Shown in pieces: positions 2,597 to 55,412 of a stretch of 64,000 bases of DNA. The stretch's first letter is position 1, and every line of letters begins with the position of its first letter. The translations under genes were made by a program, and so were the position numbers. Location of the stretch: contig NC_043001.1 in NCBI RefSeq assembly GCF_006345805.1, positions 89,032,001 to 89,096,000 on the forward strand, in the 5' to 3' direction. The stretch is from Octopus sinensis (Eukaryota). Below the pieces are notes generated by a model. That model was not told where the DNA came from. It saw only the letters and a list, made by a program, of their open reading frames with translations, and searched no databases.

Positions 2597-2962
2597 TACC
2601 TCCACCTTAGCAAAGGCAGAGGTATTGTTTTCAGTCATGCTTGTTTGTTTATTTGTTTGTCCATGGACAAGATATCTCAAGAACTGCTGGGTGGATTAGG
2701 ATGAAACTTTCAGGGATGTTTGGCCTCATGAATGGCATGGACTGATTAGATTTTGGGATTGATATGGCACTGGACAACGATTTTGGATTATTTTTCCTAT
2801 TTTTTTACTTAATTTTTGAGAGTGGTTGGGTTCATTTTTAGTATTCTCATTTGTGAGAGCAATTCAGTTTATTTCAGATATTCCCATTTTAAAAACTGTT
2901 GGCTAATCGTTGAAAGGATGTTGGTGTTGCCTTGGCGGAGGTTAACCTTCTCTGAGTGCTCT
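2597..2962 (+). mobile_element. Helentron/DINE-like non-autonomous element (second copy at 35657-36025)
   Basis: Subterminal inverted repeat acctccacc / ggcggaggt, internal (GTTT)n tract and gatgaaactt core; clearly homologous to 35657-36025. Confidence 0.65.
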
Positions 2963-3069
2963 TGTTGTTGTTGTTGTTGTCGTCGTCGTCGTCGTCATCG
3001 TCGTCGTTGTCATCGTCGTCGTCGTCGTCGTTGTCATCATCATCATATTCATCATCATCATCATCATCA

Positions 3070-3101
<32 letters not shown>
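2962..3101. repeat. Compound trinucleotide microsatellite (TTG)n(TCG)n(TCA)n(TTA)n
   Basis: Directly visible. Confidence 0.95.
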
Positions 3102-3103
<2 letters not shown>

Positions 3104-3125
3104 GTAAGGCAGTGAGCTGGCAGAA

Positions 3126-4197
3126 GTCCTCTTCCCATCTTTTCCTTGGTACATACAGTCTGTCTGTGTCACTTTTTGGGTGGAGTATCCCATATCTAGA
3201 TATCAACTTCCTTGCCTTTCTGTCTAAGATGTTTAGGTAATCTACTGTCTATGCGATTACCCCTACTCCATATCTAAGGAGTGAAACCACCCAGGTGTTG
3301 ATAGCTTCAATCTTATTCCATTCATTTAATTTTGACTTAGGGATCAGTCTCAGTCTGTGCAAGAACTTCACCTTAAATTTTTCTGTCATTTCTTTCTCCA
3401 TCAATTTATCCATTTCCAAAATCCCCAAGTACTTATAACCCATCTCTTTTATCTGGTTCATAACCTCCCCCGATGGTGTCATCAGCCCGTCCATACATTT
3501 GATTTTGCCTCTCTTCAAGACTAACACATCACACTTTCTCAGTCCGAACTCCATTCTGATATCAGCACTGAAAGTATACACCATATCAACGAGGGAACTG
3601 ACTTGGACTTCATCTTTATCATAAAGTTTGAGGTCATCCATGAATAACAAATGGTTGATTTTTTCTTTACAGCTTTTGAATACATACCCAGTTTTTGCTT
3701 TTCTCAGAATCAGTGTTAGTGGTATCAAACACAGTACAAAGATCAGTGGGGACAGGCAATCTCCTTGGAAGATGCCCCTCCTAATTTCTACTGTCCCTAA
3801 ACTTCTTCCATATGCTGTGAGGTCCGTCCTCCAATTCACCATATTTTTCCCAAGCAATCGCTCAACATTCGATGCAATACCAAATAGGTTCATGCATTCC
3901 ATAATCCAAGAATGTGGGATCATATCGTACGCTTTACGATAGTCGATCCATGACATGGCTAAGTTACTTTTCCTCCGCTTGCAGTTTTGTCTATCAGGAG
4001 TTGATCCTTGGTACCTCTGCACTTACACTTGCAACCCTTTTGCTCATGTGGCAGGACTCCCAATTTTTTTCCAGATGTTCATACACTGATTCTGTGAGTA
4101 TTCCACTTAATAATTTCCACATAAGTGGCAGACAGGATATTGGCTTGTAATTGTCTACCGTATTGCTTTTTTCAATGTTTTTCAAGCACAGTACTGC
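3126..4197 (-). mobile_element. R4/Dong-type non-LTR retrotransposon RT fragment
   Basis: [65 protein letters not shown]; flanked by (TTA)n. Confidence 0.88.
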
Positions 4198-22540: not shown

Positions 22541-23290
22541 GCTGACCTGGGCATTACTATCAGCAGCGACTTGCACTGGATAAAGCACATCTCTAAAATT
22601 GTCAAGAAGGCCGAGGGTGTCTTGGCATCACTTAACGAGACCTTTGTTAGCTGCTCTCCAGCTATCTATTTAAAGCTGTATATGGCTATGGTGTGGCCAC
22701 ATTTGAAATTTGCATCACCAGTCTGGAACCCCTATCTTGCTCAGGACATTGACCTCCTGGAAACTGTTCAGAGATGTTCAGCCAAGCAAATACCCCCCAC
22801 CAAGCATCAACCATACTCTGAACACCTTACTTCCCTGGGCATAGATATATTGAAGCTCTGACATCTGGCAACTGACTTGGTAAACACCCACAAAATTATT
22901 AACCATCGTGCCAACATCCATGTTGAGCATCTTTTTGAACTCCATGTGTCAAACACATGTGGGCATGCCTACAAAGTCAGAAAACAGCACGGCTCCTATG
23001 ACTTTCAGAAACATCTTTTCACACTTAGAGTTGCTGAAGCATGGAACTACATGCATCAGTTGTTAGTTGCTGAGGCATTGCATCCTTTAAAATCTCTATA
23101 CTTCCTGAAATTCACCATCACTACACTTGATATCCCCCCACCACCACTCCATATGCATGCACACATGTATATTATGACTCATACACTATTCATTTTCCTA
23201 ACTTTTGTATTTAATTCTATGTACTGTACATACCTTTGATGAGTTGTAGTGCACCTGAGCACTATACACAATAATTTCATTATTACTATT
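22541..23290 (+). mobile_element. CR1/L2-group LINE 3' fragment
   Basis: DLGITISSDLHWIKHI..IVKKA...KLYMAMVWPHLKFASPVWNPY..DIDLLETVQR, followed by a 3' UTR ending aataatttcattattact. Confidence 0.85.
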
Positions 23291-23381
23291 TTTTTAAATG
23301 CCACAAAGCATTATGCTTGATTCTCTAACAAGCACTGCACTTCACTTCCTGTGTGTTTATCTTTGAAATATTACTATAGTT

Positions 23382-28089: not shown

Positions 28090-28850
28090 TAAGGAACTTA
28101 CTGTATACAGTGCTTAGGTACACTGCAACTCATCAGAAAAAGTAACCAAAACTGCATGAACAGTATATAGGATATGCACAAGAACTGAACCATGAATAAG
28201 TCTTTAAAAAAACACAGAGTGGTGGGGGGTTCAAGTGTACTATTGGCAAATTTCAGGAAGCATGGAAGTTTCGAAGGCTGTAGAGTCTCAACAGCTAACA
28301 ACTGATGCATGTAGTTTATGCCATGCTTCAACAATTCTGAATGTGGAAAAATGTTTCCGAAAGTCATGGATGCTGTGTTGTTCTTTTGATTTTGTAAGCA
28401 TGTCCATGAGTGTTATCATCATTATCATCATCATCCTTATCATCATTTAACGTCTGTTTTCTATGCTGGCATGGGTTGGAATTCAAAAAGATGCTCAAGG
28501 TTGTTGTTGGAAAAATAGTGGATAATCTTGTGGGTGTCTACCAAGTCAGTTGCCAGAGACTGGAGCTTTACTGTGTCCATGACCAAGGAAGCAAGATGTT
28601 CAGAGTATGGTACTTGCCTGACAGTGGGTATTGGTCTGGTTGTACCTTTGTGAACTATTTCCTGGAGATTTATATGCAGAGCAAGATAGGGGTTCCAGAG
28701 TGGTGATGCACACTCTAAGTGTGGATGCACCATGGCCATATACAACTTTAATTAGATAACAGGAGAGCAGCAGACAAAGGTCGCACTGAATGATGTTAAG
28801 ACACCCTCAGTCTTCTTGACAATTTTAGAGATGTGGTTTGTCCAATGATT
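28090..28850 (-). mobile_element. CR1/L2-group LINE 3' fragment of the same family as 22541
   Basis: YMAMVHPHLECASPLWNPYL; interrupted by a short RTE tail at ~28410-28480. Confidence 0.8.
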
Positions 28851-28945: not shown

Positions 28946-30987
28946 CCTACTATTTGTGGTACGAGGGAACTGTAATGCAGAGAATAAAATACAGTTCACC
29001 CACCTCTCGTTGGCTGTCCAGCTGTGTTAAGCCCAAACATGTGTCCTATCCATCTTACCTAATGTTAGCAGCTGCTACTACCAATCCCTGCTAGCTTGCT
29101 CCACTCACATCCATTTACCACGACTGACCTAGACTGAAAAAGGATGACCCTAGTCTTGCTTCCCTCACTTCTTGTCTCCCACTTCCTGTTCCAGTGGAGC
29201 CCCTTGAGTGTTGACATCACAGCCCTTTCCCTTCCGGTTCATCTCATCCCCATACATCCCCCACCTGATCTCAAAGATCACCTCCTCACTTCACTCTATG
29301 TAATCTTCCATCTTCCGCTCTTGCCCTCTCTAGGCTCTCCTGCATCATTGCCACCATCCCCTCTCCCACTTTGTCTCCCCAGTTTGTCCTGTCTGCTCAT
29401 CTCTTGATGTAGCTGCATGTTGTTCATAGCCTCCCTGCAGAAGAGAGAGAGGGCCTGCCTTTGTGCAGGTTGGGGGGGGGGTGAAGTTTGGGTCAAGCCC
29501 CTGAAGGCATGCTGCACATCTCAGTGGAACAGAGGAACAGTGACAGTGGTTAATTCCAAAAATATTGTTTCTGTGGATGGAATACCATGTCATGTCTTGG
29601 ATGTTCACAGAATTGTCACTTCATCGGACAATGAAGGTGGAGGAGATGAAGAGAATAAGGCCCCCTCCCCGCAGAGATTAGAGTGTGTGAGGCATCCACT
29701 TGGGTGATGGCAGATTTTGACATGGAGTGAACTGAGGAGGTGATCTTTGAGATCAGGGGTGGGGGAATGAGATGAAACAGAAGGAAAGGACTGTGATGTC
29801 AACAGTCAAGGGGCCCTTTCCTTCCAGTTCATCTCATCCCCACACACTCACTGATCTCAAAGATCACCTTACTTCACTCCATGTCGAAATCTGCCATCCA
29901 CTCAGGTGGATGCCTCACGTGCTGTGATCTTCACAGGGAAGGAGCCTTGTTCTCTTCAGCATTGGGGTTCCCCTTTTCAATGCTACTCTACCATCCACTG
30001 CTGACCATCACACACCAGCAGAAAATCTTTGTCCTCAATGGTGTAAGCAGTACAATCCCTCGTGGAGCTTGTTCCACTTGTGTCTCTTCACTACAACTGC
30101 TGCAGGCCAAAGGTGGATGACCCTGGTCTTGCTTCTCTCACTTCCTCTCTCCCCCTTCCTGATCCTGTGGGGCCCCTTGACTGCTGATGTCACAGCCCTT
30201 TCCTTCTGGTTCATCTCATCTGGAGATGGTGAAAACACAGATATACCAATTGAACGAAGAGGACACCAAATTATTGTTACAACCAACCACATATTTGTTA
30301 TTGGTCGATTTAACCCAACCTACTCAGGGTTGTTTAATGAGGTATGGTCCTTTAACATATCAACAAACTTATGGACAAAGTTTAAAACAACAGGTCCGGC
30401 ACTAACGCAGGTTGCTTCTCATTCAATGTGTCTTCTTGGAAACAACATATTTGTGTTTGGTAGATCAGGCCTGTCATTTGGCATGAACAGTGGCAATGCT
30501 ATTTATCAACTCGATCTTCTCAAGCCAACCATCATTAAATGGTGATGCTGCAAATTTCCCTTCAAAGAAATATGGGCATACTATGCATCGAACTGACAAT
30601 TACAAATACATCTGTGGTGGTACATGAATCTTACCATCTTGAACTTAGCACAAAATCTTGGGAATATATTGAATGTAAAAACCCACCAGAACCAAGACAT
30701 TGGCATGGAATTGTAATGCGGGGAATAAAATATGGTTTACCTACCTCTCATTGTTGGCTGTCCAGCTGTGTTAAGTCCAAACACATGCCCTACCTGTCTC
30801 ACCTAGTATTAGCCGTTGCTACTACCAATCCCTGCTAGCTTGCTCTACTCACATCCATTCACCATGACTGCCCCAGGCTGAAAGAGGGCGACCCTAGTCT
30901 TGCTTCCCTCACTTCCTATCTCCCCCTTCCTGTTCCGGTGGAGCTCCTTGACTGTTGACATCACAGCCCTTTCCTTCCAGTTCATCA
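28946..30987. mobile_element. Composite ~2-kb insertion with ~275-bp direct repeats (28971-29245 and 30712-30987, both starting TGTAATGC), extra partial and inverted copies, and the kelch fragment; interrupts a SINE
   Basis: The SINE is split between ...aaaatacagtaccag (28945) and gtgctggggtcgat... (30988). A partial direct copy lies at ~30110-30218 and an inverted pair at ~29655-29790 / 29813-29958. Confidence 0.7.
30219..30711 (+). pseudogene. KLHDC10: Kelch-repeat gene fragment resembling KLHDC10/slim, frameshifted
   Basis: PIERRGHQI...IFVIGRFNP..LFNEVWSFNISTNLW...VASHSMCLLGNNIFVFGRSGLSFGMNSGNAIYQLDL, then shifted frames PSKKYGHTM..YICGG and YHLELSTKSW...PEPRHWHGI. This follows the kelch 1-4 order of KLHDC10 as I recall it (GGYNP, ASMSLVLHGNNLLVFGGTGIPFG, YGQ, PEERYRHE). 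Confidence 0.75.
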
Positions 30988-31506: not shown

Positions 31507-31542
<36 letters not shown>

Positions 31543-31545
<3 letters not shown>

Positions 31546-31826
31546 TTCACTGAGTTTACATATATACAGATACGAAGTCCAGGCAAATATCACCAGCCGA
31601 CCGGTGTCTGCTACTCTAGGCCGATGAAGGACAATGATCCTGAAACACGGTGTCCCTAGATGCGGTTCCAGCGGTTGGGGGTGTTTGTCTCCCCTTCGTA
31701 TATGTATATAAGGACACAGGGAAAAAATGTGTCGAAGCTGTCAGGAAGCGTTCGATGCCTCCTAGGGCTATACAACGGTGGTGTACCCCCTACTGTCACG
31801 TTCTTGTTAGATTGACAGTATACAAC

Positions 31827-31831
<5 letters not shown>
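31543..31831 (+). mobile_element. ~290-bp structured, CpG-retaining non-coding element with a hammerhead ribozyme, inserted in (TA)n (retrozyme-like)
   Basis: Bounded by pure (TA)n on both sides, has no meaningful ORF, and contains an HHR plus several hairpins. Confidence 0.75.
31615..31660 (+). ncRNA. Type I hammerhead ribozyme (U4C core variant); predicted cleavage after C31654 (GUC)
   Basis: TCTAGG | CCGATGA | AGGA-caatga-TCCT | GAAA | CAC-G-GTG | T C | CCTAGA: perfect 6-bp stem I, 4-bp stem II, near-palindromic stem III. Confidence 0.85.
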
Positions 31832-31880
<49 letters not shown>

Positions 31881-32299: not shown

Positions 32300-32753
32300 G
32301 TATATCAAAAGGATGTGTTATAATACTATTCCACAGCTATACCAACAATTCAACATATCTCCATCATCAGCTGCCCCACGGATATCATTATGGTTTTGAC
32401 ACCTGGGCAGTACCATTTAATCTGGCAGTGTCAACAGCACTAAAATAAGTGTTGTTTGGGAACTAAGAAACCAAAGAAACCACAACTTCAAACACATTTA
32501 CCCAATGTACAACTGTATCAATAAATAAATTCCATAAGTAAATTACAACCCCTCTAAATATGTAACTAAACAGTGACAATTCTATGAAGTCATAAAAAAT
32601 TACATTTATGAATGTATGTATATATATATATGTGTGTGTGTGTGTAAGTATGTGTATGCATATGTAGGTGTATGCATATGTAGGTGAAATAAAACGAGAC
32701 AACAAAGCCAAGGCAGTCTGAAAGTTCTAGGATATTTTATAAAGAAAAGGGTA

Positions 32754-32801
32754 GTCTTACAGCTGTTTCAGGGATATAAAAGATATCCCATCATCAGAAA
32801 T
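32754..32801 (-). ncRNA. Minimal type I hammerhead ribozyme (left-arm copy)
   Basis: Minus strand attt | CTGATGA | tGGGATATcttttATATCCCt | GAAA | CAGCTGT A | agac; core and stems II/III are identical to the right arm. Confidence 0.83.
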
Positions 32802-32977
32802 GATATGAGAGAGTTAAATAGAAGGAAATAGTAGAGTTCAATATAAGAAGTTATTTTGGAGAGGGAGAGATATTGGAGATATAAAGGGAAATATTTATAT
32901 TTCCTACATCTCTCCCTCTCCAAAATAACTTTTTATATTGAACTCTACTATTTCTTTCTATTCAACTCTCTCATATC

Positions 32978-33025
32978 GTCTCTGATGATGGGATATCTTT
33001 TATATCCCTGAAACAGCTGTAAAAC
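32978..33025 (+). ncRNA. Minimal type I hammerhead ribozyme; predicted GUA site at 33021
   Basis: gtct | CTGATGA | t GGGATAT-ctttt-ATATCCC t | GAAA | CAGCTG T A | aaac: canonical core and palindromic stem III ACAGCTGT. Confidence 0.85.
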
Positions 33026-33769
33026 TACCCCTCTCTTTATAAAATGTCCTAAAACTTTTGCATTGCTTTGGCTTTGTTGTCTCATTTTAGTTAACCTATA
33101 CATGCTCACACATGGCCTGCATTTGACTCATCACCAGTGGCAGCTCATAGATAAAATTAGTTGAGATGCTGCTTCAGAAAATGTTTAGCTGTTGTTTTAG
33201 TAGGAAACAAACATATAGGAAGAAAGTTTATACATAAATTTGATCGATTCGCATTTTAGCCGCTGCCGAGTAGTGTGTTTAATTTATTCACTGAACACCA
33301 CCACAAATTCGCCCTCCTTTTTCAAAAATCCCCCTTTGCCCCCCACAAATGACAAAATAAAGGAGGGGGGAATGTGCCTTAGTTTTCAAATCCTGGCAGC
33401 AGGATAATAATCTAATTCTACACTTTATTACATTCAAGAATATAAACACATTTTTAAGCACAACACACGTGTAGTCAAAAAGAAACACTAACTTTCACCA
33501 GAACACAAAGGTCGGCACTGTCATTCATGCACTGCTCTCTCTTCCTAGTGTGAAGCTTCCTATCTTGGACATGTGAGCATGCACACAACAGCCAACACTG
33601 TCGCTGGAACTGAAGTGCATGGTTCTATACAAGGATATTTGTATTTTTTTCATAAACTAGGGGATGGCTACTGACATTAAGCTTAAGGATTATATAATGT
33701 ACAAGTATAAAGAAAGAATTAAAGAAAAAAGGACTCATAATATTGAATGTTATCGATAATATCAAGTGG

Positions 33770-34320
33770 AAATAGGGTGTGCTGCAGTTCCGCAGTGCCT
33801 ATACACAAGCTGCCACTGCTCCTCACTCACACTATTATCGAACCAGGAGTTTAACAGTGTTCTTTCCAAAGCACTTACATAGCCTTTTGAATCTTATGGA
33901 TACCAACCTCTCCATCTGGCTCATTCCCCTGCTCTCACCCATGCTGCCACACTTGCTCCTACCTCTCCAACACCACCATCCTCACAGGAACCCATCATCA
34001 TCCCTATCATATCACTGACTCCTTTACCTGCACTTCTAGCAACATCATTTACTGCATCTCCTGCTCTGTCTGCCCTACTCTGTACATCAGTCAAACAGGA
34101 GGCTGCTTGGCTGACCAGTTCATGGAGCACCTCTGAGACATTAGACTCAGCAATGACACCCCAGTCTTGTAACATTTCTACTCTACCAGTCATTCATTAT
34201 AACACTTGTCTGTGTTCAGATTGTCTTTGCATAGGGGCCATCCGGACTCCTACCTTCTCTAAGAACAGAAATTAATCTTCTCTCTTCACTCCTTTGTGCC
34301 ACATGGGGGAAACCCCCCTC
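33770..34320 (+). mobile_element. Degraded Penelope-like GIY-YIG endonuclease remnant
   Basis: Plus-strand translation near 34000-34150: HPYHITDSFTCTSSNIIYCISCSVCPTLYISQTGGCLADQFMEHL*DIR, matching the FTC.S.N..Y...C..C...YIGQT...L..R..EH pattern. Confidence 0.75.
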
Positions 34321-35656
34321 CCCTCTTCATCTGACACCTACTTCTCTTTACTCCTACCCACCTCTCCTCTCTTGTCTTGACACCTACTTCCTCTCTTCAC
34401 TCCTACCCACCTTCTCTCTTCATTCATACCCCCTCCATCTACCCCCACATACCCCATCCTCCACCCCCACAAGACAAAGACAAAGAATCCACAACTGAGG
34501 GAGGAGTAGTATTGAGAGAAGTGGCTTTGTGCCAGTAACCAAAAGGGAAACTTCTATGGGGTAGCTCAACTTGCTAAAAATAGCTGCCAACTCACATACA
34601 AATCACACCTTACTGTTTTATGTTTGTATTAGCCAATGTGGGGACCACTACATAACCGTTAGACTTGCTAGTAGTAGTAGTAGCCAAATCTCTCAAATTA
34701 CACCCTACTTCTCTTTTGCATAAAAGTTGTGCAACTCTGTTCTTAGTAACACTATTTCTGATGAGGCCTATACACCTTTTCCTCTTCACGATTCTTTTAT
34801 TTTTCACTTTTCTGTCTTTGTATTTTGGTATTTCTTGACACAGTGCAAAGGTCATGTCAAAACATGAACCATAGAATAACATAAGATTCTGTCACCTGTC
34901 ACTCCCGACTAAATGTTTGAACAAATAATAAAAAAAAAAACCGGCCAGGGTACTGCAGGAGTTATTTCCCTTGCAACGTTTTTACCGTGCAAGACTGCTG
35001 TATGTATTTACCTATATATTATCTAACAACAACTTTGGTTATGATTATTAATTCAATACCTCTATCACTTTTCAACATGCTTATAAAATATATAAAAAGA
35101 ACAGAGCTGCGCACCTGATTCTCAGAAATATTTTTTCAAGCTCAGAATTATTAAACCGTGGAATAAACTACCCACACCAGTAAGCTGTCTGGACAATGCA
35201 TCCTTCAAAAATTCCATGGTTCTTGAAAGTTACCAACACTATTTCTGATGTGCCTATGCACCTTTTCTTCTTCTTCACGATTCTTTTACAGTTCACTTTT
35301 CTGTCTTTGTAGTTTGGTATGTCTACTGGGCATGTACTTTTAACTACCATTGCTGTCTTTCTTTGACTTATTGCTGCTTTCTAAACCCCTTTTTTACCTT
35401 TTTCCAACCAGTTGTGATGCATCTGAGCACTGTATACAATAAGCTCAATCATTATCATTATTATAATTATTATTAAGGCGGCAAACTGGCAGAATCGTTA
35501 GTACACCGGGCAAAATGCTTAACATCATTTTGTCTCACCTTATGCTTTGAGTTCAAATTCCACCAAGGTAGACTTTGCCTTTCATCCTTTTGGGGTCAAT
35601 GTCATCAACTAACCTCCCCCAAAGTTTCAAGCTTTGTGCCTATTGCAGAAAGGATT

Positions 35657-36023
35657 ATTACCTCTTCTTTAACAAAGGCAGAGATATTGTTTTCAGTTGT
35701 GTTTGTTCGTTTATTTGTTTGTCCAGGCACAAGATATCTCCAGAACTGCTGGATGAATTCAGATGAAACTTTCAGGGATGTTTGGCCTCATGACTGACAC
35801 AAACTGATTAGATTTGGGGATAGATCCGGTACTGGACAAAGATTCTGGATTATTTTTCCTGTTTTTTTACTTAATTTTTGAGAGTGGTCAGGTTCATTTT
35901 TAGTATTCTCGTTTGTGAGAGAAGTCGAGTTTATTTCAGATATTCTCATTTTAAAAATCATCTCTGGCTAATCGTTGAGAGGACACTGGTGTTGCCTTGG
36001 TGGAGGTTTGCACTCTCTGAGCG

Positions 36024-36025
<2 letters not shown>
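35657..36025 (+). mobile_element. Helentron/DINE-like element, copy 2
   Basis: Colinear with 2597-2962. Confidence 0.65.
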
Positions 36026-36063
<38 letters not shown>

Positions 36064-37675: not shown

Positions 37676-39457
37676 GATCTACCTATATACATACATACAT
37701 ACACAATCTGAAAGTTAAGGAGAGGAACGTAAGCACTTATAATTAGTTCGATGAAACAACAAATTTCAATCGATCAAATTCTCCTTTATTTTTAAAAATA
37801 GGATCATATTTGAAGCTCCAAAATGTTAGGAAGCATTTACAGTCAAAATGAGATGTTTACAACTAGAATTGACCAAATGAAGCTCAGGCAAAAAATGACC
37901 AAATGAATATCTCAGACCTGTCACATGGGCCTGTTCAAACAGAGCTAACAGATCATTTTTCAACATTCTCCTGGCAATGTCTCATAAAGACAAAAACTAT
38001 TAAATGTGTTTACATGCCTGCTTTGTTAAGTCTCGTTAATATCTTGATATTCTAAAAGACTTTAGTCGTAGATCCTTCCACTCTTTGTGAAACATCAGAA
38101 AACAAATGGTCCCTATCCAGTACAATTATAAGCTTTATTATGAACCTTCTCCTAGGTCAGGCCCAAATCTGCCAGGTCTGCTTCACCTCCTCTCTGTTTT
38201 TCAATCAAGAGAGGCTCTCTCTGGTCTCTGGAATGTATAACATATAGCTGAGCATCTTCCTGTCTCACAACAATGGTATCCTGTAGGTTACTCAGCCTGG
38301 CCTTTTCCTGACTTCTACTATCATGATGTGGGTTCATGCTGAGGAATTCAGTTTGGTCCTAAGGCAATGTCTGTGCAAGCCATCTGCAGTTCTAAATTCT
38401 GCAGATCTTTTTTTATTTCTCCCAGACATAGTTCAGCATGAAGGTAAATATATTCAGATGGAGATTGGTGCCTTGATTAGTGAAGGAGTTGGACAATACA
38501 GGCTTCAGGCACTGGAAGAAAGCCCACAGCTTTGTTGAGTCTCTTCTCCTCATCACTTTATGAGTTTCATCATTTGTAATGATACTTCCCTAGCTTTAAG
38601 TATTATCACTAGATGTTACCAAGAAATATAATTGCTGTGGAGTGCAGGTCTTCTTGAGTACAGCAAGGCACCGGGCATCTTGGTCCTTTGTCATCTCGCC
38701 TGAAAGGTACAGTATCCTCAGGTTGTTCTTCAGTACTTTATTCCATGTCTTCTTGGGTCTCCCACTTCCACAGGTTCTATTTACTTTGAAATCTGCACTT
38801 CTTTGTGGAGCTGTCAGCATCCATCTGCAATATTAAATATGTAAAGATTAAAACCAGGTAGCAAGGTCCAAAATATTTATGTAAACAAAACTGAATGTTA
38901 CAGTGATGTTACAGAGTTGATGGAACCAAACTTTAAATTTCTATTTATTTTTTCATCAAACTTACCATTTTGTAGGATTACTACTGGTATTTTGGTTTTC
39001 CTTCAAATCTGTTAGTTTCTGTCAGGCATCTTCATCAAATTAGCTTGGCAGATTATTTCTCCTTTTCTGCATAATATATACCACCATGACTGACCAGGCT
39101 ATCAGATATTGTTACACATCGCTGGTCACAATGCGCTTCACATTGTTTTAGCCTTCAAATGACGCCACCCCGCTGGCTAAGCGAGCAGGCAAACAGAAGA
39201 AAGAGTGAGAGAAAGTTGTGATGAAAGAGTACAGCAGGGATTGCCACTACCCCCTGGAGCTTTAGCTGTTTTCACTCAATAAACACTCACAATGCCTGGT
39301 CTGTCAATCGAAACCATGATCCTATGACTGCGAGTCCGCTGCCCTAACCACTGGGCCATTCAAGTCCATATATATATATATATATATAAAAAAGGAAATG
39401 AAGAAAATGCTGACAAATAATTGAAGTAATTTAAGTAATTTAATTAGGTGAAAGTTC

Positions 39458-39495
39458 TTTTTACCGGTTGCGCATTTGTTATGCTTATCAAAATA
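39458..39495 (-). ncRNA. Mirror copy of the variant hammerhead motif in the Penelope left arm
   Basis: ttaccggttgcgcatttgttatgcttatcaaaat is the exact reverse complement of the right-arm motif. Confidence 0.5.
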
Positions 39496-40211
39496 TAAAA
39501 GAGAGATTAGAGTCTGTCTCTTATATGTGAAAAAAAGGCTCCAGAGTTGTTTTGGATTTGCTTGGTTTCGCGCCTAAAATTTTGATCGGTCATTATGAAG
39601 GGGTCACGTGAATGTTTGAATGGAAGTTGGTGTTGGGGTAAGAAAAAGGCTCCAGAGAAGTTAAAATTTGGCTAGTGTCCCGCCTAAAATTTCTTATTGG
39701 CCATAATAAAGAGGTCACGTGAATGTTTAGAATTTTCGAAAATAGTGTTGTTGAAAATTCTTATTGTTCAGGCTGGTCAGTAGACGTCATGTGGATATTT
39801 TAAATAGCTTTTTAGCGCGTAGTTAGGGAGTGTATTTTCCGCTTGACTGGATAAGTAAGTTCGTTTAGAACAGGGAGAGCTGTATGTATGTATGTGTGTG
39901 CGCGCGCGCGCGCGTGTGTGTGTTTATATGTATGTTGGGGCGCGCGCGCGTGTATATATGTGTATGTGTGTGGGTACAATTTTCAATATTTATAGTTCTG
40001 CTGGCCTTGTGCCTGTATCGGGAAGCAACGTATTTGTGTGAAGTCAATATTTACAGCCATTTCCAAAAAATAGTGTTGGATGTTTTGCACCCGTATTCAA
40101 TTATGTGTATGTGTGGAACCATATATTTGTGTGTGTGTCATGGTGTTAATATCTGGGTAAAGGTGTGTGTAGGGTGTGTGCAGGTGTAAGTGTGTTTGTT
40201 GTGGGTTCGTG

Positions 40212-41754
40212 TTAGGGGCATGTGTTTAGAAGTGGTCTGTATTTATTAATAAGGTGGGATTCCATGGTTATTCGCTGGGTATGAGTGGCATTGTCTTTAA
40301 ATTTGTAGAGGGGAAAGATTCTAAAATTGGGATGGAGTTGTGCGGCACAGGTATCAATATGTGCACTAAATGCTATTTTTCTATATTCTTCCTGTATTTT
40401 TATTTGGGATCTGTGGACAGTCATGCGTTGGCGGAGGCTATTTTTTGTTTGGCCTATGTAGTGTTCATTACAGCCCGAGCAAGTTAAGACATATACTAGG
40501 TTTTCTGATGCGCATGTGAAGTTGTGTTTTACTGTGAAACGTTGTCCTTGTTTAAAAAGGAATTCCGGACCTTCTATTAGGTTGATGCATATACCACAGT
40601 TGGGTCTATTGCATTTGTTTACTGTGGGTTTAGTTGTGGTTGGCAGTACTTTGGCATTTGTTAGGATGGTTTTCAATGATTTGGGTTGCCTTTTGCTCTT
40701 TATGATTTCGTGTGTTAGGAGGATTTGGTTCATTCTATGGTCCTTTTGTAATACAGGAATGTTCTGGAGGATGGTGTCAAAAGCTTCATTGTTGAGGGGG
40801 TTGTGTGTAGAGATGTATGGTAGAGTATGGGGTTTCGATGTAACAGGTTTAGGGCGTCTAAGTTCCTGCGTGCTGAGTTTTAGGGCGCGTTGGATCCCAT
40901 TGTCAATTAGTGACGTGGGGTAATCCCTGCTTGTTAATGTGCCCTTGAGTTCTTGTAGACGTAAGAGACGGGTGTTTTTATTGGAGACTATAGTGCAAAT
41001 TCTCTTGGCTAAGTTGTAGGGAATGTTATTTTAACGTGTCTAGGGTGGCATGAATTGAAAGGGAGGTATTGCTTGGAGTCTGTGGGCTTGTAGTATATGT
41101 CTGTTTCTATTTTTTTGTTGTGAATTTTAATGAGGATGTCGAGGAAGGGAATTTGTTGAGGGCTGTATTCCATTGTGAAAATAATGTTTGTGTTGAGCCC
41201 ATTTATAAGAGTGTGAAATTCGTTAAGCTTCTCGACGGTTTCGGGCCAAAGGATGAAGCAGTCATCAAGATATCTCTTCCAGTTCTTCTCTATGTGTGTG
41301 TGGAGAGTGGTGCCAAATTGGTTAAGAACGTTATTATAGAGGGTGATTTCCAGGTATCCCATGACTAAGTTGGCGTAAGTGGGAGCTGTTTTCGTTCCCA
41401 TTGCCGTCCCTGATTTCTGTCTGTAGAATTTGTTGTTGAAGGTGAAGAAATTATTCTCTAAGATGAATTTGAGTCCTTCTAAAATAAATTCCTTTTTGAT
41501 GCGGTGTGGGAGTTCGTTGGAGTAATTATCCAGCCAGAATTGGATAGCTTCTATTCCTAGGTTGTGGGGGATGTTGGAGTAAAGATTGACTACATCGAAT
41601 GTTACTAGCAGGGTTTGTTCAGCAAGAAGTGTATTGGGGAGGTGGTTGAGCATATCTAGATCGTCCCTTATGTAGCTTTTAATGTGTTTGAGGAACGGCT
41701 TGAGAAGGGTATCAATGAAGTTGCTAAGGCGGTGGGTTTCGCAAGCGGGACCTG
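40212..41754 (-). pseudogene. Penelope-like RT plus GIY-YIG ORF, 5'-truncated at the inversion junction, with one apparent frameshift near 41030
   Basis: The RT frame (ORF 41009-42097, genuine part from ~41754) shifts at RHVK to NNIPYNLAKRICTIVS... and runs into the GIY-YIG ORF 40212-40733, stopping at 40212. Confidence 0.88.
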
Positions 41755-42397
41755 GCCCTAAACCTGTTACATCGAAACCCCATACTCTACCATACATCTC
41801 TACACACAACCCCCTCAACAATGAAGCTTTTGACACCATCCTCCAGAACATTCCTGTATTACAAAAGGACCATAGAATGAACCAAATCCTCCTAACACAC
41901 GAAATCATAAAGAGCAAAAGGCAACCCAAATCATTGAAAACCATCCTAACAAATGCCAAAGTACTGCCAACCACAACAACTAAACCCACAGTAAACAAAT
42001 GCAATAGACCCAACTGTGGTATATGCATCAACCTAATAGAAGGTCCGGAATTCCTTTTTAAACAAGGACAACGTTTCACAGTAAAACACAACTTCACATG
42101 CGCATCAGAAAACCTAGTATATGTCTTAACTTGCTCGGGCTGTAATGAACACTACATAGGCCAAACAAAAAATAGCCTCCGCCAACGCATGACTGTCCAC
42201 AGATCCCAAATAAAAATACAGGAATATAGAAAAATAGCATTTAGTGCACATATTGATACCTGTGCCGCACAACTCCATCCCAATTTTAGAATCTTCCCCT
42301 CTACAAATTTAAAGACAATGCCACTCATACCCAGCGAATAACCATGGAATCCCACCTTATTAATAAATACAGACCACTTCTAAACACATGCCCCTAA
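41755..42397 (+). pseudogene. Second, inverted copy of the Penelope linker plus GIY-YIG domain
   Basis: ORF 41682-42341 repeats PKPVTSKPHTLPYISTHNP...CNRPNCGIC...HYIGQT; a 1-bp frameshift lies near 42297. Confidence 0.85.
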
Positions 42398-43112
42398 CAC
42401 GAACCCACAACAACACACTTACACCTGCACACACCCTACACACACCTTTACCCAGATATTACACCATGACACACACACAAATATATGGTTCCACACATAC
42501 ACATAATTGAATACGGGTGCAAAACATCCAACACTATTTTTTGGAAATGGCTGTAAATATTGACTTCACACAAATACGTTGCTTCCCGATACAGGCACAA
42601 GGCCAGCAGAACTATAAATATTGAAAATTGTACCCACACATACACATATACACACGCGCACGCGCCGCCCCAACATACATATAAACACACACACGCGCGC
42701 GCGCGCGCACACACATACATACTACAGCTCTCCCTGTTCTAAACGAACTTACTTATCCAGTCAAGCGGAAAATACACTCCCTAACTACGCGCTAAAAAGC
42801 TATTTAAAATATCCACATGACGTCTACTGACCAGCCTGAACAATAAGAATTTTCAACAACACTATTTTCGAAAATTCTAAACATTCACGTGACCTCTTTA
42901 TTATGGCCAATAAGAAATTTTAGGCGGGACACTAGCCAATTTTAACTTCTCTGGAGCCTTTTTTCTTACCCCAACACCAACTTCCATTCAAACATTCACG
43001 TGACCCCTTCATAATGACCAATCAAATTTTAGGCGCGAAACCAAGCAAATCCAAAACAACTCTGGAGCCTCTTTTTTTCACATATAAGAGACAGACTCTA
43101 ATCTCTCTTTTA

Positions 43113-43150
43113 TATTTTGATAAGCATAACAAATGCGCAACCGGTAAAAA
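43113..43150 (+). ncRNA. Variant minimal hammerhead motif at the 3' end of the Penelope right arm
   Basis: TTGATAA (U3/A8 replacing C3/G8), GCAT-aacaa-ATGC stem II, GCAA instead of GAAA, palindromic ACCGGT stem III, GUA site; stem I is weak. It lies about 75 bp from the arm end. Confidence 0.5.
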
Positions 43151-43255
43151 GAACTTTCACCTAATTAAATTACTTAAATTACTTCAATTATTTGTCAGCA
43201 TTTTCTTCATTTCCTTTTTTATATATCACCACTCGTGTTCGACATCTCCTTTTTT

Positions 43256-43300
<45 letters not shown>

Positions 43301-43614
43301 TTATGTATATAGTTATAATTCAAGTTTAGATTTAAATTTAAAATTTAAACTGTGCTTTGGGTATGTCCCTAGTAGTATGCCAGCAGAGCACATTCACTGC
43401 ATATGGCTACCTGGTGTTGTCCACAGTAATTGCACAATCATTGCTGGATCTACATTAGGAATTTCTCTGTGTACATTGGGTTTAGTAGAAACAATTGATA
43501 CGGAAGATAGAGTATAGTGGAAACTTTATTTATCACAATGATCATGCTGGATGTGTCAAAATGATTGTTGTGATAAAGTTTCCAATATACTCTATCCTCC
43601 GTATCAACTGTTTC

Positions 43615-43654
<40 letters not shown>

Positions 43655-48711: not shown

Positions 48712-50484
48712 CTATACAGCTGATTCTCTGCCGTATGCATAGCTTACCACTGAGTAAAGAGAGGTCTGGGAGCCCAAGTTGGAATTGAAGTCTTTCTGAG
48801 AGTAAGGAGGAGTTTCTTGGGTTAAACTGGACGGGTTCTGAACCATTGAGTTAAAATAGTTCCTAACATTGAAACTTCGGTCTGACTCATTCAAGGACCC
48901 AATATCGAGATCCTGAAATGCTCTTCGTTTCTCAGATTTTTCCAAATGACTGCTATCTTCTGCAGATCGGTTGCACAGCCAATTTGGGCCATTTTTTTTA
49001 CAAACACACTTCCAGAGAACTATTAAAGCCATGAAAACAACAACTGCAAAAATACTGCAACTTATTGCAATGATTAATACCGTATTAGAATCTGGTTTGT
49101 TCTTCAACTCGACATCACACTTGGAAATCTCTTCATCTGTAAGCTGTTTAATGCGGCGCTCATGTAGACCTAATGGAATCTCACACTGAAGAAAATCACA
49201 CCCATCAGATTGATACTGATTTGAGCACTGTAACGTTCGAGAATATGTTGGATTCTGTAACCAGTTACGGAATCCTCTTATATGACAGTCACACACCCAA
49301 GAGTTCCTATCAACTTTTATCCATTTTAAATTGGAAAATATACGCAAAGTTGATTCTGGGATATTTTTGAGATTATTAGCAGAAAGATCTAATTTCTGAA
49401 GGCTTCTGGGTCCTTCAAATTGGTTCAAACTGTTTATTGAACAGTCAGAGAGATTCAGTTCTCGCAACCGATATAACTCTGTAAAAGCATTAACTGGAAG
49501 TTTTTGGAGAGGATTTCCAGATAAGCTTAAATATTCAAGCTGGGGTGCCATTGGATGCAAAGAGCCACTGTCTAAATGGTCAATTGAGTTCAGTGATAAA
49601 TCTAAATGTTTAGTGTTGAAGTATTTAAAAGTCTCATCAAAGATCTGTCGAAGATTATTCCGAGACAAGTTCAAAGTATCAAGGTTGATACCAGAAAACT
49701 GGTTCTCTTCTAGTTTATAAATGGTATTATTGTACAAAGAAAGAGTCCTCAAATTTGGAAGACTGCGAAGGATATTCAGCATGAGAGGTTTGGTCAGTCC
49801 GTTACTTGACAAGTCCAAGCTTATTAAATTACGAGTAATTGTGAACAGATCCGTTGCTATTGAAAACAACTGACAGTTACTAAGTGATAAATGCAGCAAA
49901 CTGCGCAACCACTGAAAACTGTAGCTGTAAATATTCTGCATGTTATTCCCATCAAGGATCAAAGTGTTCAGCTTACCTTGAGACTTAAAAATACCACTCG
50001 GGAGAGAATAAACCTGGTTCCACGACAAGTCAAGAAACTCTAATTTATGTAAGGTGTAAAAAATATCATCAATATTTGCAATCAAGTTGTGAGACAGATC
50101 TAAATGAATTAGGTTCGAGAGTCCTTCAAAGGCTTTGTTGTCTACATTGGTGATATCATTGTGTGTCAATGAAAGATACTGTAAGTTCACCATGCCTTGG
50201 AATGTTGTCTCAGAAAGTTGAGAAATGTAATACTTTGTTACAGTTAAGTTATTGAGTTGACTGAAGGATTCAGTACGAGAAAAGCTTTGCTTCAGATCAC
50301 CACGCATCTTACTGCCCTGTAGTGTCAGCTGCTGTGTAGATTTCGGCACTTTTGCAACTGTGTTTTGTAATGACCCACTCTGGCACACCACCACAGTGCC
50401 AGAGCAGCTGCAGGAAGTGGGACAGCCATTTGTATATGTCAGAAACACAATGAAGAATAAATAGTATGATAGAGATTTGATCAT
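48712..50484 (-). CDS. Leucine-rich-repeat single-pass transmembrane protein (signal peptide, LRRNT, roughly 14 LRRs, LRRCT, TM, cytoplasmic tail with C-terminal ESAV); CDS in one exon, 590 aa
   Basis: Uninterrupted ORF. A pyrimidine tract and AG acceptor (minus strand ...ttttgttttattttctAG|aaac, exon starts 50495) precede the ATG at 50484. MIKSLSYYLFFIVFLTYTNG is signal-peptide-like; CPTSCSC is LRRNT; repeated LxxLxLSxNxI/L units follow; NSWVCDCHI..F..WL is LRRCT; VLIIAISCSIFAVVVFMALIVLW is the TM segment. No Ig, FN3 or TIR domain is visible. Confidence 0.93.
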   Translation of the reverse strand: MIKSLSYYLFFIVFLTYTNGCPTSCSCSGTVVVCQSGSLQNTVAKVPKSTQQLTLQGSKMRGDLKQSFSRTESFSQLNNLTVTKYYISQLSETTFQGMVNLQYLSLTHNDITNVDNKAFEGLSNLIHLDLSHNLIANIDDIFYTLHKLEFLDLSWNQVYSLPSGIFKSQGKLNTLILDGNNMQNIYSYSFQWLRSLLHLSLSNCQLFSIATDLFTITRNLISLDLSSNGLTKPLMLNILRSLPNLRTLSLYNNTIYKLEENQFSGINLDTLNLSRNNLRQIFDETFKYFNTKHLDLSLNSIDHLDSGSLHPMAPQLEYLSLSGNPLQKLPVNAFTELYRLRELNLSDCSINSLNQFEGPRSLQKLDLSANNLKNIPESTLRIFSNLKWIKVDRNSWVCDCHIRGFRNWLQNPTYSRTLQCSNQYQSDGCDFLQCEIPLGLHERRIKQLTDEEISKCDVELKNKPDSNTVLIIAISCSIFAVVVFMALIVLWKCVCKKNGPNWLCNRSAEDSSHLEKSEKRRAFQDLDIGSLNESDRSFNVRNYFNSMVQNPSSLTQETPPYSQKDFNSNLGSQTSLYSVVSYAYGRESAV

Positions 50485-52314
50485 CACCCAAGTTTCTAGA
50501 AAATAAAACAAAAAACAGTATTAAGACCTGAATTTATTATTTTTTATTATAAATCTATTATATTAATTAATAAATTAGTTCTTAACAGTGGCTATTAATA
50601 AATGATTACAGATTACCATTTATGTGTAAATACTATAAGAGTTTCACATATGTAATACAATGACTTGAAAACCAGATTATCAAAGTAATTAGTAGATAAA
50701 ATCTCCTCGAAGATGTGCTTAAAATCTAAAAATCAAAAGCTCAGCAAACAAGGGAAATAACTGCAGGAAGATCAGTTGATTGCTATGTTTCAACAGAGTT
50801 GGCAAGAGAGACTTAACTGGATTTTGGCTTTTGAAACAAATTAACAGAAGTAACAGACATGTTTTTGATCTTATTAGATCTTGCTCTGCTGAAGACGTCT
50901 TTGACCAGTTAGCTTTAATGGTCAGTTCCACTCCAGACAATATTATCTATCATTGTCAAGAAGACATAGAAAGGAGATGATTATTAGGCAGAGGAAGATA
51001 ATGAGAAATGGAAGTGGTTTTGGGCAGGGAAGAAAGGTTACTGAGAAAGCCAGTGGGTGGAGGGATGTAGTATGTACTTATTCTGTTCTCAGATGATAAA
51101 AAAGTGATGAGTGTTAAGAGATGAAACATGGGGTGAAAAGGCTGATGGGGCAGAGAGGATGGAGTTGGGGTAGAGCCCATCTCAGATAAGCATTATCAAG
51201 GTAGTTTTAGGATATCAATTCTGCTGTGGTAAGTGAATCTTCTTGAGTACAAAAAAGTGCCAAATATCTCAGTCCTTTGTCATCTCTTTCGTAAGACTCA
51301 GCAACTTGAGATTGGCCTTCAATACTTCACGTGCACACACACATATATAAACAGAGAGGAAGAGAGGGGGAAGTCAGAGAGAGGATATGTTAGAAGAGTC
51401 TTAATTTATGGAAAAGAAATTGGGGAAGGAGAATGTTAAAAAATATGTGCCTACCATAATTCACTGGGTCCCATACGTCCTACATAACAATTGAGTCTCA
51501 ATATTGTTTATCTACTTAGTGATTCTTGCATCGTTATTCTAACTTGCACAGTGAAGTCTATGCTTTGCTGAGAAGGTCTAATAAAATTAAAACAAATCAA
51601 GAGTTGTGCCCCATACTTGCTTAGTAATTAAAACATTTGTCACTGAGTTAATGTTGATTTTTTTTCTCACCACATAAGTATTCTAATTGGATTGTTGATG
51701 CTACATTTACTTATGAATTAGCAATTGTTTTTCAAACAGAAATACAAGCATGGCTGTGTGTTCAAGCAGTTTGCTTTCCAATCGTGTGGGAAAATACTAG
51801 CGTCTAACATTATTATCATCATTCTTGCATGAGTTAGACAGAATTTTTTGACATAGGTTTTGTATGGCTGGATGCTCTTCCTATTGTCAACCCTCACCAG
51901 TTTCTAAGCAAAGTAATATTTACCCATGATCAGACATGTTTTCATGGAAGATAGAAAACAAATGATGTACATTTACAACCACCATGATATGCTGCAAGGA
52001 GAAACACTGGTACAAACACATTATATGTGTTTGTTTGTGTATATGGTTGTGTGTGTGTGTGTGTGTGGAAGAGTATGGCCTTAGTGGTTAGGATGTTGCA
52101 CTCATGATCATAAGATTATGGTTTTGATTCCTGAACCAAGCAATGCATTCTGTTTGTGAGCAATCCTGTGACAGTCTGGCATCCCATCCAGGAGGAATAT
52201 ATATGCCACAGAATCCGGAAAATCACCCTTATGAGCTTATGGCTTGGGAAAGATCTTGGATTCTTTTTTGTTTTGTTTCTTTGTCATTTTGATACATACA
52301 CTCAAATGTGTACG

Positions 52315-55131: not shown

Positions 55132-55412
55132 GGAGGCGCAATGGCCCATTGGTTAGGGCAGCAGACTCATGGTGAAAGGATCTCGGTTTCGATTCTCAGA
55201 CTGGGCATTGTGTGTGTTTATTGAGCAAAAACACCTAAAGCTCCAGCAGGGGTTGGTGGCAATCCCAGTTGTATTCTTTCACCCTTTCTTCCTGTTTCCT
55301 GGGTAACGCTGCGATGGACTGGTGTCCCGTCCAGCTGGGGGGGGGGGTCGCATACGCCACAGAAACTGGAAAACCGGGCCCATGAGCCTGGCTAGGCTTG
55401 AAAAGGGCACAT
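55132..55412 (+). mobile_element. tRNA-derived SINE family C (related heads at 39085-39360(-) and 24600-24770(-))
   Basis: ggaggcgcaatggcccattggttagggcagc...ggtttcgattc, with gcgatggactggtgtcccgtccag (V-SINE-like central motif). Confidence 0.75.

What the first reader, a model, noticed from the sequence alone, without database searches (positions are those of the whole stretch)
39381..43226. Very young Neptune-type Penelope insertion with 1.47-kb inverted arms duplicating the whole GIY-YIG domain
Seen: the arms differ mainly by 1-3-bp indels, CpGs are intact, and the 900-bp spacer is RT truncated at GPACETHRL and fused head-to-head to a second copy starting at PKPVTS (junction 41754/41755). 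The inverted part is far longer than a typical pseudo-LTR and includes coding sequence. Inference: the family is recently or currently active and could supply RT/EN to the small HHR elements. Read-through transcription would give ~1.5 kb of dsRNA, a likely ADAR/siRNA substrate, which is notable if this is a coleoid with extensive A-to-I editing. Caveat: the indel-only differences may be unpolished read errors, and fold-back assembly artefacts exist, although the different outer flanks and unique spacer argue against one.
Basis: partly seen in the sequence, partly recalled or inferred. Interest (0 to 1): 0.7.

Follow-up and report, generated by a model that had tools for sequence, protein, structure and literature searches.

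The report
Young head-to-head Neptune retrotransposon in octopus
Two shortened copies of a Penelope-type (Neptune) retrotransposon sit head to head inside a TA repeat of an octopus genome; this is a known, ordinary insertion shape, likely recent, and the small differences between its arms are likely sequencing errors.

Summary
Observation confirmed. Arms 39382-40855 and 41755-43226 differ by 2 substitutions and 13 indels around an 899-bp spacer. The host is an Octopus close to O. vulgaris. The element is Neptune-type: C-terminal GIY-YIG, CCHH, linker spacing 24 aa against 25-27 in Neptune and 7-8 in Nematis. The tail and the non-mirrored flanks argue against a fold-back artefact. Also missed: a variant hammerhead (U3-A8, A13C) 74 nt before each end, and a duplicated promoter-like module facing outward. 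The indels are likely assembly errors (13:2 against 20:280 in older repeats, p=1e-12). Age is likely under about 0.7 My. This copy lacks a third of the ORF, and its 3' end shares no similarity with the small hammerhead elements, so trans-supply is unsupported. dsRNA or ADAR editing needs outside transcription and is untested. Likely mechanism: priming on both strands at two RNA start sites, then blunt joining. New member of a known kind; interest 0.25.

The parts
39368..39387 (.). Left (AT)10 target microsatellite, just after a 140-nt dispersed repeat (39222-39360)
   Evidence: repeat copy at 55140-55281, 82%
39382..41754 (-). Copy 1: 5'-truncated Neptune PLE (RT from GPACE on, thumb, Cys linker, GIY-YIG, 3' UTR); 3' end at the U-tract 39388-39393, no tail
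40856..41754 (-). Unique 899-bp spacer: RT core (FDV, GTAMG...APTYAN, YLDD) and thumb; 1-nt frameshift in an A-run near 41030
   Evidence: Pfam RVT_1 E=3.8e-7; tblastn frame change -1/-3; alignment
40212..41030 (-). Open 272-aa C-terminal frame of copy 1: thumb, CX4CXXC linker, GIY-YIG with CCHH; one extra in-frame codon (QEEY) absent from 39 of 39 homologs that could be scored
41754..41755 (.). Head-to-head junction, blunt as assembled: 0 bp pairing in snap-back register; a 5-bp match lies 12 nt off register
   Evidence: residue before GP is Ala in 113 of 116 homologs with the motif
41755..43226 (+). Copy 2: more deeply 5'-truncated copy (PKPVTS to stop at 42397, then 823-nt 3' UTR); 1-nt frameshift near 42294
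42874..43078 (+). Tandem ~110-nt promoter-like module in the 3' UTR, twice CACGTG / RRCCAAT / TTTTAGGCG (E-box, NF-Y, E2F-like; labels recalled), facing out of the insertion; mirrored at 39531-39733
   Evidence: 78% tandem match; motif positions 42886/42905/42918 and 42997/43016/43027; promoter activity is inferred
43117..43146 (+). Variant type-I minimal hammerhead: U3-A8 core, G10.1-C11.1, 4-bp stem II, A13C, palindromic ACCGGU stem III, predicted cut after 43146
   Evidence: 0 of 5000 UTR shuffles under a relaxed descriptor; dimer fold -19.1 against 2 x -6.3 kcal/mol
39462..39491 (-). Identical hammerhead motif in copy 1
43221..43256 (+). 36-nt one-sided PLE 'tail'; both ends of the tail follow a CCTTTTTT tract; its first 6 nt (ATATAT) match the TA target
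   Evidence: best match elsewhere in the window 12 of 30; tail definition in PMC8557442 and PMC11167929
43259..43288 (.). Right (AT)15 target microsatellite; flank beyond it does not mirror the left flank

Best explanation
This is a single, likely recent, insertion of an octopus Neptune-type Penelope-like retrotransposon: two 5'-truncated copies joined head to head in a TA microsatellite, likely made by reverse transcription primed on both cut strands, with arm differences that are likely sequencing errors. Shown by the sequence: two copies with 3' ends outward, both ends in (TA)n, a tail on one end only, a blunt junction, a hammerhead-like motif and a promoter-like duplication in each 3' UTR. 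Inferred, by analogy with the anole Poseidon protein in vitro: the GIY-YIG domain cut both strands of one (TA)n tract. One RT began at the inner start site of an RNA (left end, no tail) and a second at the outer site 36 nt further on (right end, tail). They stopped after about 2.37 and 1.50 kb. The two cDNA 3' ends were then joined without homology, either by an RT jump from the broken RNA onto the other cDNA end (which would also make the second strand) or by host end-joining. The locus is predicted to be dead on arrival: no N-terminal third of the ORF, and promoters that would fire outward. The source would be a tandem master copy elsewhere in the genome.
For: Architecture matches the described PLE type: inverted 5'-truncated copy, 30-40-bp tail at one end, (TA)n target (PMC8557442 passages; PMC3846280). 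The anole PLE protein cleaves and extends both strands, prefers AT-rich DNA, starts at two internal RNA sites that bound the tail, and is predicted to be a dimer (PMC11167929). The tail is on the short arm and absent from the left flank, so the short arm is not a plain copy-back of the long one. Junction has 0 bp pairing in fold-back register. Hammerhead cut lies 74 and 110 nt before the two ends; in the anole element the cut is at +26 and RT starts at +111-118; in related locus L001 a canonical palindromic hammerhead lies 53 nt before a U-tract and (AT)n. Youth: 2 substitutions in 1463 sites, 0.19 My, upper bound 0.69 My at the rate quoted in PMC13282606; no stop codons in either coding piece of copy 1. 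Errors: 13 indels to 2 substitutions against 20 to 280 in 7 older repeat pairs, p=1.4e-12; the 9 indels outside the CA/CG microsatellite all lie in homopolymers or tandem units; both copies carry damaged states; the host LRR gene has none where 6.5 would be expected. An older miniature of the same shape (32668-33111, 25 substitutions, 0 indels) shows that such fold-backs exist in this genome as real DNA. O. vulgaris has 31 recently active PLE families with 336 insertions.
Against: One locus only; no reads, no empty allele, no full-length copy of this family (best relatives 66-67% full length, 74-75% over 154 columns for O. bimaculoides remnants). No target-site duplication can be read inside (TA)n, so continuity of the two flanks is not shown. 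The two-strand priming model comes from a Poseidon element, not a Neptune. A self-primed hairpin intermediate trimmed by the endonuclease gives the same final product (PMC3846280; PMC8557442). A 5-bp match 12 nt off register (chance 0.026) hints at some annealing at the junction. With about 1 indel per 275 nt, the junction itself may be misread by a base. Arm identity can be raised by gene conversion or polishing, which would make the age too young.
Confidence: 0.62

Rival explanations
1. Same real Neptune insertion, but made from one template by self-priming (fold-back) into a hairpin cDNA, whose ends the endonuclease then cut in a staggered way so that one end kept the tail.
For: Proposed for PLEs from palindromes at inverted junctions (PMC3846280); the tail is ascribed to EN-mediated resolution in PMC8557442. 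Arms are nearly identical. The 3' end at 41754 can pair 5 bp with 40844-40848. Both tail ends are AT-rich, as an EN site would be.
Against: No pairing in register, and priming at the 5-bp match would have dropped 12 nt that are present. The in vitro start sites explain the tail without trimming (PMC11167929).
Confidence: 0.25
2. Assembly artefact: a fold-back chimeric read, or two separate Neptune copies from different loci joined by the assembler.
For: The indel pattern shows that this stretch is poorly polished; tandem and inverted PLE structures are known to trouble assemblies. Flank continuity was not testable.
Against: A fold-back read would mirror host flank and could not add a 36-nt tail; the mirror stops at the element's end and the flanks share nothing. 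Both ends lie in (TA)n and the whole matches a described biological shape. A diverged miniature of the same shape lies 6 kb away.
Confidence: 0.08
3. The indels are real: slippage by a telomerase-like RT during two independent cDNA syntheses.
For: All indels lie in homopolymers or short tandem units, two are 3-nt repeats; unique DNA in the window is error-free.
Against: At 14 indels in 3845 nt a 2.25-kb ORF would take about 8 per transposition and the family could not persist. The older miniature has 0 indels in 218 nt. Errors confined to a young repeat are what short-read polishing leaves (general knowledge).
Confidence: 0.05

Closest known systems
Neptune clade of Penelope-like elements (Neptune-1_Ac, Neptune1_Nv, DrerioNep1)
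   Same: RT then C-terminal GIY-YIG; CX2-5CxxC linker about 25 aa before the next Cys; CCHH; AMG...AP.YAN at RT motif 4; (TA)n target; inverted truncated copy; one-sided tail; minimal hammerhead.
   Different: A separate octopus lineage: groups with four O. bimaculoides remnants (99/95), at most 67% identical to full-length relatives. No tree with named Neptune references was built.
Inverted-pLTR Penelope insertions of Drosophila virilis and Adineta vaga
   Same: Head-to-head inverted 5'-truncated copy of variable size; 31-34-nt tail.
   Different: Those are Penelope/Poseidon clade. The active forms include a partial tandem with a full ORF; here both copies are truncated, so there is no upstream pLTR and no full ORF. 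No junction palindrome here. The D. virilis promoter is internal and TATA-less with a DPE; here a duplicated CACGTG/CCAAT/E2F-like module lies in the 3' UTR.
PAc, Poseidon element of Anolis carolinensis (in vitro, PMC11167929)
   Same: Two RT start sites bounding the tail, a hammerhead some 50-110 nt upstream, AT-rich target.
   Different: PAc starts in an AC-rich stem-loop inside the ORF, at a site not homologous to the target. Here the ends follow CCTTTTTT tracts in non-coding sequence and the inner site is followed by ATATAT, which matches the target.
Minimal PLE hammerheads, including the U3-A8 variant of Schistosoma Cercyon (PMC4209133)
   Same: Type I, G10.1-C11.1, palindromic stem III that favours a dimer, U3-A8 covariation, 2-bp helix I as in D. 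virilis.
   Different: C instead of A at position 13, in both arms; stem II is 4 bp with no extra base after position 9. Activity untested.

Membership tests
EN+ Penelope-like element | Single ORF with RT and GIY-YIG endonuclease | tested here: met
   Pfam RVT_1 and GIY-YIG; colinear with 750-aa homologs across one frameshift
EN+ Penelope-like element | CCHH motif in the GIY-YIG domain | tested here: met
   VYVLTCSGCNEHYIG, TVHR, SAH in both arms, compared by eye with Fig. S2 of PMC8557442
EN+ Penelope-like element | 5' truncation with tandem or inverted pLTR-type duplication | tested here: met
EN+ Penelope-like element | 30-40-bp tail at one end | tested here: met
   36 nt, 43221-43256
EN+ Penelope-like element | Hammerhead motif in the terminal repeat | tested here: met
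   variant motif at 43117-43146 and 39491-39462; 0 of 5000 shuffles. Rfam found none; departs from the core at position 13
EN+ Penelope-like element | N-terminal motifs (GxKF, DKG) | not testable with these tools
   Truncated away here; present in the homologs
EN+ Penelope-like element | Target-site duplication | tested here: inconclusive
   Both ends lie in (TA)n
Neptune clade | CX2-5CxxC linker upstream of GIY-YIG with Neptune-length spacer | tested here: met
   CX4CXXC, then 24 aa to the next Cys; three Neptune rows 25-27 aa, three Nematis rows 7-8 aa, counted by eye
Neptune clade | (TA)n insertion preference | tested here: met
   (AT)10 and (AT)15 at the two ends; one locus, plus L001 ending in (AT)n
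Neptune clade | RT phylogeny with named Neptune references | not tested
   No named reference was among stored sequences; the motif-4 region resembles DreriNep1 and XtropNep4 by eye. Neptune is itself paraphyletic
Naiad clade | Endonuclease N-terminal to RT | tested here: not met
   EN is C-terminal
Penelope/Poseidon clade | No Cys-rich linker between RT and EN | tested here: not met
   Linker present
Autonomous, currently active copy | Full-length ORF behind an upstream pLTR promoter | tested here: not met
   About 245 N-terminal residues missing; no other RT of this family in the window

The most novel reading that the evidence does not exclude
Neptune finds TA microsatellites the way telomerase finds telomeres: the RNA carries a short UAUAUAU alignment patch right behind a CCUUUUUU start signal, the nicked (TA)n 3' end pairs with it, and a dimer primes both strands at two such signals 36 nt apart, then closes the gap by a homology-free jump onto the partner cDNA. 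The family would be live in octopus germ cells, timed to S phase by an E2F/NF-Y/E-box promoter in its pLTR, and would carry a hammerhead with a doubly altered core (U3-A8 plus A13C). Each such insertion would seed an outward-facing cell-cycle promoter pair and a 1.5-kb editable hairpin.
Probability: 0.15. Interest if true: 0.65.

Novelty: new member of a known kind. Interest (0 to 1): 0.25.

Why it matters
As it stands it is a clean example of a known class. It adds a likely recently active Neptune family to Octopus, where recent PLE activity is already reported (31 families). Its modest value is mechanistic: both cDNA start points, the tail, a blunt junction, a variant ribozyme and a candidate promoter can be read from one locus, and how PLEs make inverted copies and choose microsatellites is named as an open question in PMC8557442. 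If template-target pairing or the cell-cycle promoter held across the family, it would make that question testable for the Neptune clade. It is also a caution: indel-only divergence in young repeats of this assembly should not be read as evolution.

Tried and rejected
Rfam: no match at gathering score, and no hammerhead among 67 weak matches. A first hammerhead scan with the canonical core missed the Neptune motif; I then saw it by eye about 100 nt before the tail. The descriptor was fitted to it and missed the small elements, so I rely on the relaxed one, which gave 5 hits in the window: both arms, 31621, 32797 and 6824 (the last probably chance; shuffled windows give 0.18); it missed the mirror copy at 32982. 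Single-strand folds of the 3' end and tail were not significant (z -1.4, -1.1, 0.0), so no stem-loop start signal is claimed. No solved structure matched. Three protein searches found no member of this family above 74%. The genome-contig scan gave 2 loci from 7 candidates: L001 was useful; L002 is degraded, with no hammerhead hit, no inverted copy and no promoter module. The promoter-like module is absent from L001 too, which counts against it being general. Shared 3' ends with the small hammerhead elements: rejected. Snap-back priming in register: rejected. A-to-I traces: the one substitution outside the microsatellite (39587/43020) can be read as A-to-G or as CpG decay; one site says nothing. 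Both reading frames stay open across the junction (first ATGs 41682 and 42028); taken as chance. Luense et al. on hammerhead variants (PMC5785218) is not held, so whether A13C is in print there is open. Not checked: viral and metagenome contigs, any eukaryotic assembly, reads or RNA data, and the supplements of PMC11167929 and PMC4209133, which may bear on the hammerhead variant.
Full report
Observation. The inverted repeat is there. Arms 39382-40855 and 41755-43226 align with 1461 matches, 2 substitutions and 13 indels (blastn gives 98.4%), around an 899-bp spacer. The spacer holds RT (RVT_1) and both arms hold GIY-YIG. Copy 1 reads on the minus strand from 41754 to 39382, copy 2 on the plus strand from 41755, so the 5'-truncated ends meet and the 3' ends face out. 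Against full-length homologs of about 750 aa, copy 1 starts at residue 246-262 and copy 2 near residue 547; copy 1 has one frameshift near 41030, copy 2 one near 42294.

Host. The LRR membrane-protein ORF at 48712-50520 is 588 of 590 identical to O. vulgaris CAI9723213.1, so the host is an Octopus close to that species. In an RT tree of 29 rows (the window piece and 28 hits that I chose from 258 stored proteins) the element groups with four O. bimaculoides remnants at 99/95. No hit in three searches exceeded 74% identity.

Clade. The endonuclease is C-terminal, has the CCHH motif and a CX4CXXC linker followed by 24 residues to the next Cys. In Fig. S2 of PMC8557442 (supplement part 54) three Neptune rows have 25-27 and three Nematis rows 7-8, counted by eye; Penelope/Poseidon rows lack the linker; Naiads have it but with the EN in front. 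Neptune is the fit; a tree with named references was not built.

The shape is known. PMC8557442 (passages) describes an inverted 5'-truncated copy adjacent at the 5' end, a 30-40-bp tail at one end, and (TA)n targets. PMC3846280 (parts 1-4 of 5) and PMC2377424 (passages) describe the same in rotifer and fly, with inverted repeats of variable size. A long arm only means that the second copy was truncated later.

Ends. The left end stops at a CCTTTTTT tract and runs into (AT)10. The right end passes the same tract, continues for 36 nt (43221-43256) to a second CCTTTTTT tract, and runs into (AT)15. The tail has no good match elsewhere in the window, and the flanks beyond the TA runs do not mirror each other. 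A fold-back read would mirror flank and could not add a tail, so that artefact is unlikely; a join of two loci cannot be excluded without reads. The first 6 nt of the tail (ATATAT) match the target.

Ribozyme. Each 3' UTR holds a minimal type-I hammerhead with U3-A8 in place of C3-G8, G10.1-C11.1, a palindromic stem III and C at position 13. Under a relaxed descriptor 0 of 5000 UTR shuffles give a hit, and shuffled windows average 0.18 against 5 observed. Two copies fold together through the palindrome at -19.1 kcal/mol against -6.3 each. U3-A8 and dimer-type cores are known in PLEs (PMC4209133, parts 1-2 of 4). One search for 'A13C' with hammerhead terms listed 2 papers, neither holding the term; the most relevant paper was not held; A13 is part of the consensus core (PMC3088659 passages), so the motif may be weak or dead. 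The related locus L001 has a canonical palindromic hammerhead 53 nt before a U-tract and (AT)n.

Promoter-like module. The UTR has a 110-nt tandem duplication (78%); each unit keeps CACGTG, RRCCAAT 19 nt later and TTTTAGGCG 30-32 nt later, though the units differ by 16 substitutions and 4 indels. The labels E-box, NF-Y and E2F are recalled. A pLTR promoter drives the downstream copy in tandems (PMC6765202 passages), so here both would fire outward. One search (15 of 74 papers listed) showed no E2F mention in the four PLE papers listed. The module is absent from L001 and L002.

Indels and age. Seven older repeat pairs in the window give 280 substitutions and 20 indels; the arms give 2 and 13 (p=1.4e-12). 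Nine indels lie outside the CA/CG microsatellite, all in homopolymers or tandem units. Both copies carry damaged states: the extra codon in copy 1 is absent from 39 of 39 scorable homologs, and each copy has a frameshift. The LRR gene has no indel where 6.5 would be expected. The errors are thus local to the young repeat, as polishing failure would give (general knowledge). Two substitutions give 0.19 My, upper bound 0.69 My, at the rate quoted in PMC13282606 (passages); conversion, polishing or source-copy differences could shift this. That paper counts 31 recently active PLE families in O. vulgaris; PMC8967140 (passages) lists Penelope among abundant coleoid repeats.

Mechanism. The anole Poseidon protein cuts and extends both strands of AT-rich DNA and starts at two internal RNA sites that bound the tail (PMC11167929, parts 1-3 of 4). 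Applied here (inference): two RTs primed on opposite strands of one TA tract, one at each start site, stopped early, and their cDNA ends were joined. The junction is blunt if the residue before GP was Ala (113 of 116 homologs with the motif), with 0 bp in snap-back register and a 5-bp match 12 nt off (chance 0.026). Homology-free template jumping by non-LTR RTs is recalled (PMC8857657 seen only in a search listing). The rival is a self-primed hairpin trimmed by the endonuclease. I put identity at about 0.9 and this mechanism at about 0.6.

Recent activity: likely. Trans-supply to small hammerhead elements: unsupported; the 3' 360 nt score no better than shuffles against 31542-31832 and both arms of 32668-33111, and this copy cannot encode a whole RT. 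That such elements derive from PLE pLTRs in general is argued in bioRxiv 10.64898/2026.07.22.740005 (parts 1-2 of 5). dsRNA: any transcript across the locus would form a hairpin with perfect runs up to 246 bp as assembled, and young repeats are the main A-to-I targets in metazoans (PMC9989829 passages), so editing would be expected and ordinary. But nothing shows transcription; the LRR gene points toward the locus from 5.5 kb away with 5 AATAAA signals between. Bidirectional pLTR promoters have been suggested and are not excluded.

Verdict. A real, probably young, non-autonomous Neptune insertion of canonical inverted-plus-tail form: new member of a known kind, interest 0.25. Reads, other assemblies, RNA data and the viral and metagenome collections stayed unchecked.

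Noticed in passing
window 32668-33111: Older miniature fold-back: 218-nt arms, 8-nt spacer, 25 substitutions and 0 indels (about 17 My), a canonical-core hammerhead with palindromic stem III in each arm (32797 minus, 32982 plus), left end in a TA/CA microsatellite. Same head-to-head shape, different family.
   Followed up: partly
window 31542-31832: About 290-nt element between two (TA)n runs with a well-formed type-I hammerhead (31621-31654, 6-bp stem I, C at position 4); looks like a solo pLTR or retrozyme monomer.
   Followed up: partly
window 43483-43619: Small inverted repeat of about 60-nt arms ending at a (TA)n run, 200 nt right of the Neptune insertion; no hammerhead hit.
   Followed up: partly
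window 48712-50520 (minus): Uninterrupted 590-aa LRR membrane-protein ORF, 588 of 590 identical to O. vulgaris 'carboxypeptidase N subunit 2-like'.
   Followed up: partly
window 28966-30986: Decayed Kelch-repeat coding stretch without visible introns (about 30230-30730) lying between two 280-nt direct repeats (86%) with further internal rearranged copies; possibly a captured or retrocopied gene fragment.
   Followed up: no
window 33930-34154: Weak tblastn match (E 1e-5 to 1e-9) to the PLE linker/endonuclease: an old decayed PLE remnant.
   Followed up: partly
window 41676-42341 (plus) and 41009-42151 (minus): Both frames stay open across the junction with in-frame ATGs (41682; 42028 and later), so chimeric EN-only or RT-EN proteins could be read on paper.
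   Followed up: partly
window 2593-4022, 35655-36044, 22574-23300, 28219-28847, 16810-17970: Older LINE fragments (RVT_1 at 3252-4022); the pair 22574-22944 / 28477-28847 is inverted at 78%. A ~250-nt SINE-like repeat occurs at least 9 times.
   Followed up: no
L001 1-2021 and L002 4001-5273: Related PLE sequences with TA microsatellites in assemblies titled as bacterial; probably animal DNA carried along (inference).
   Followed up: partly
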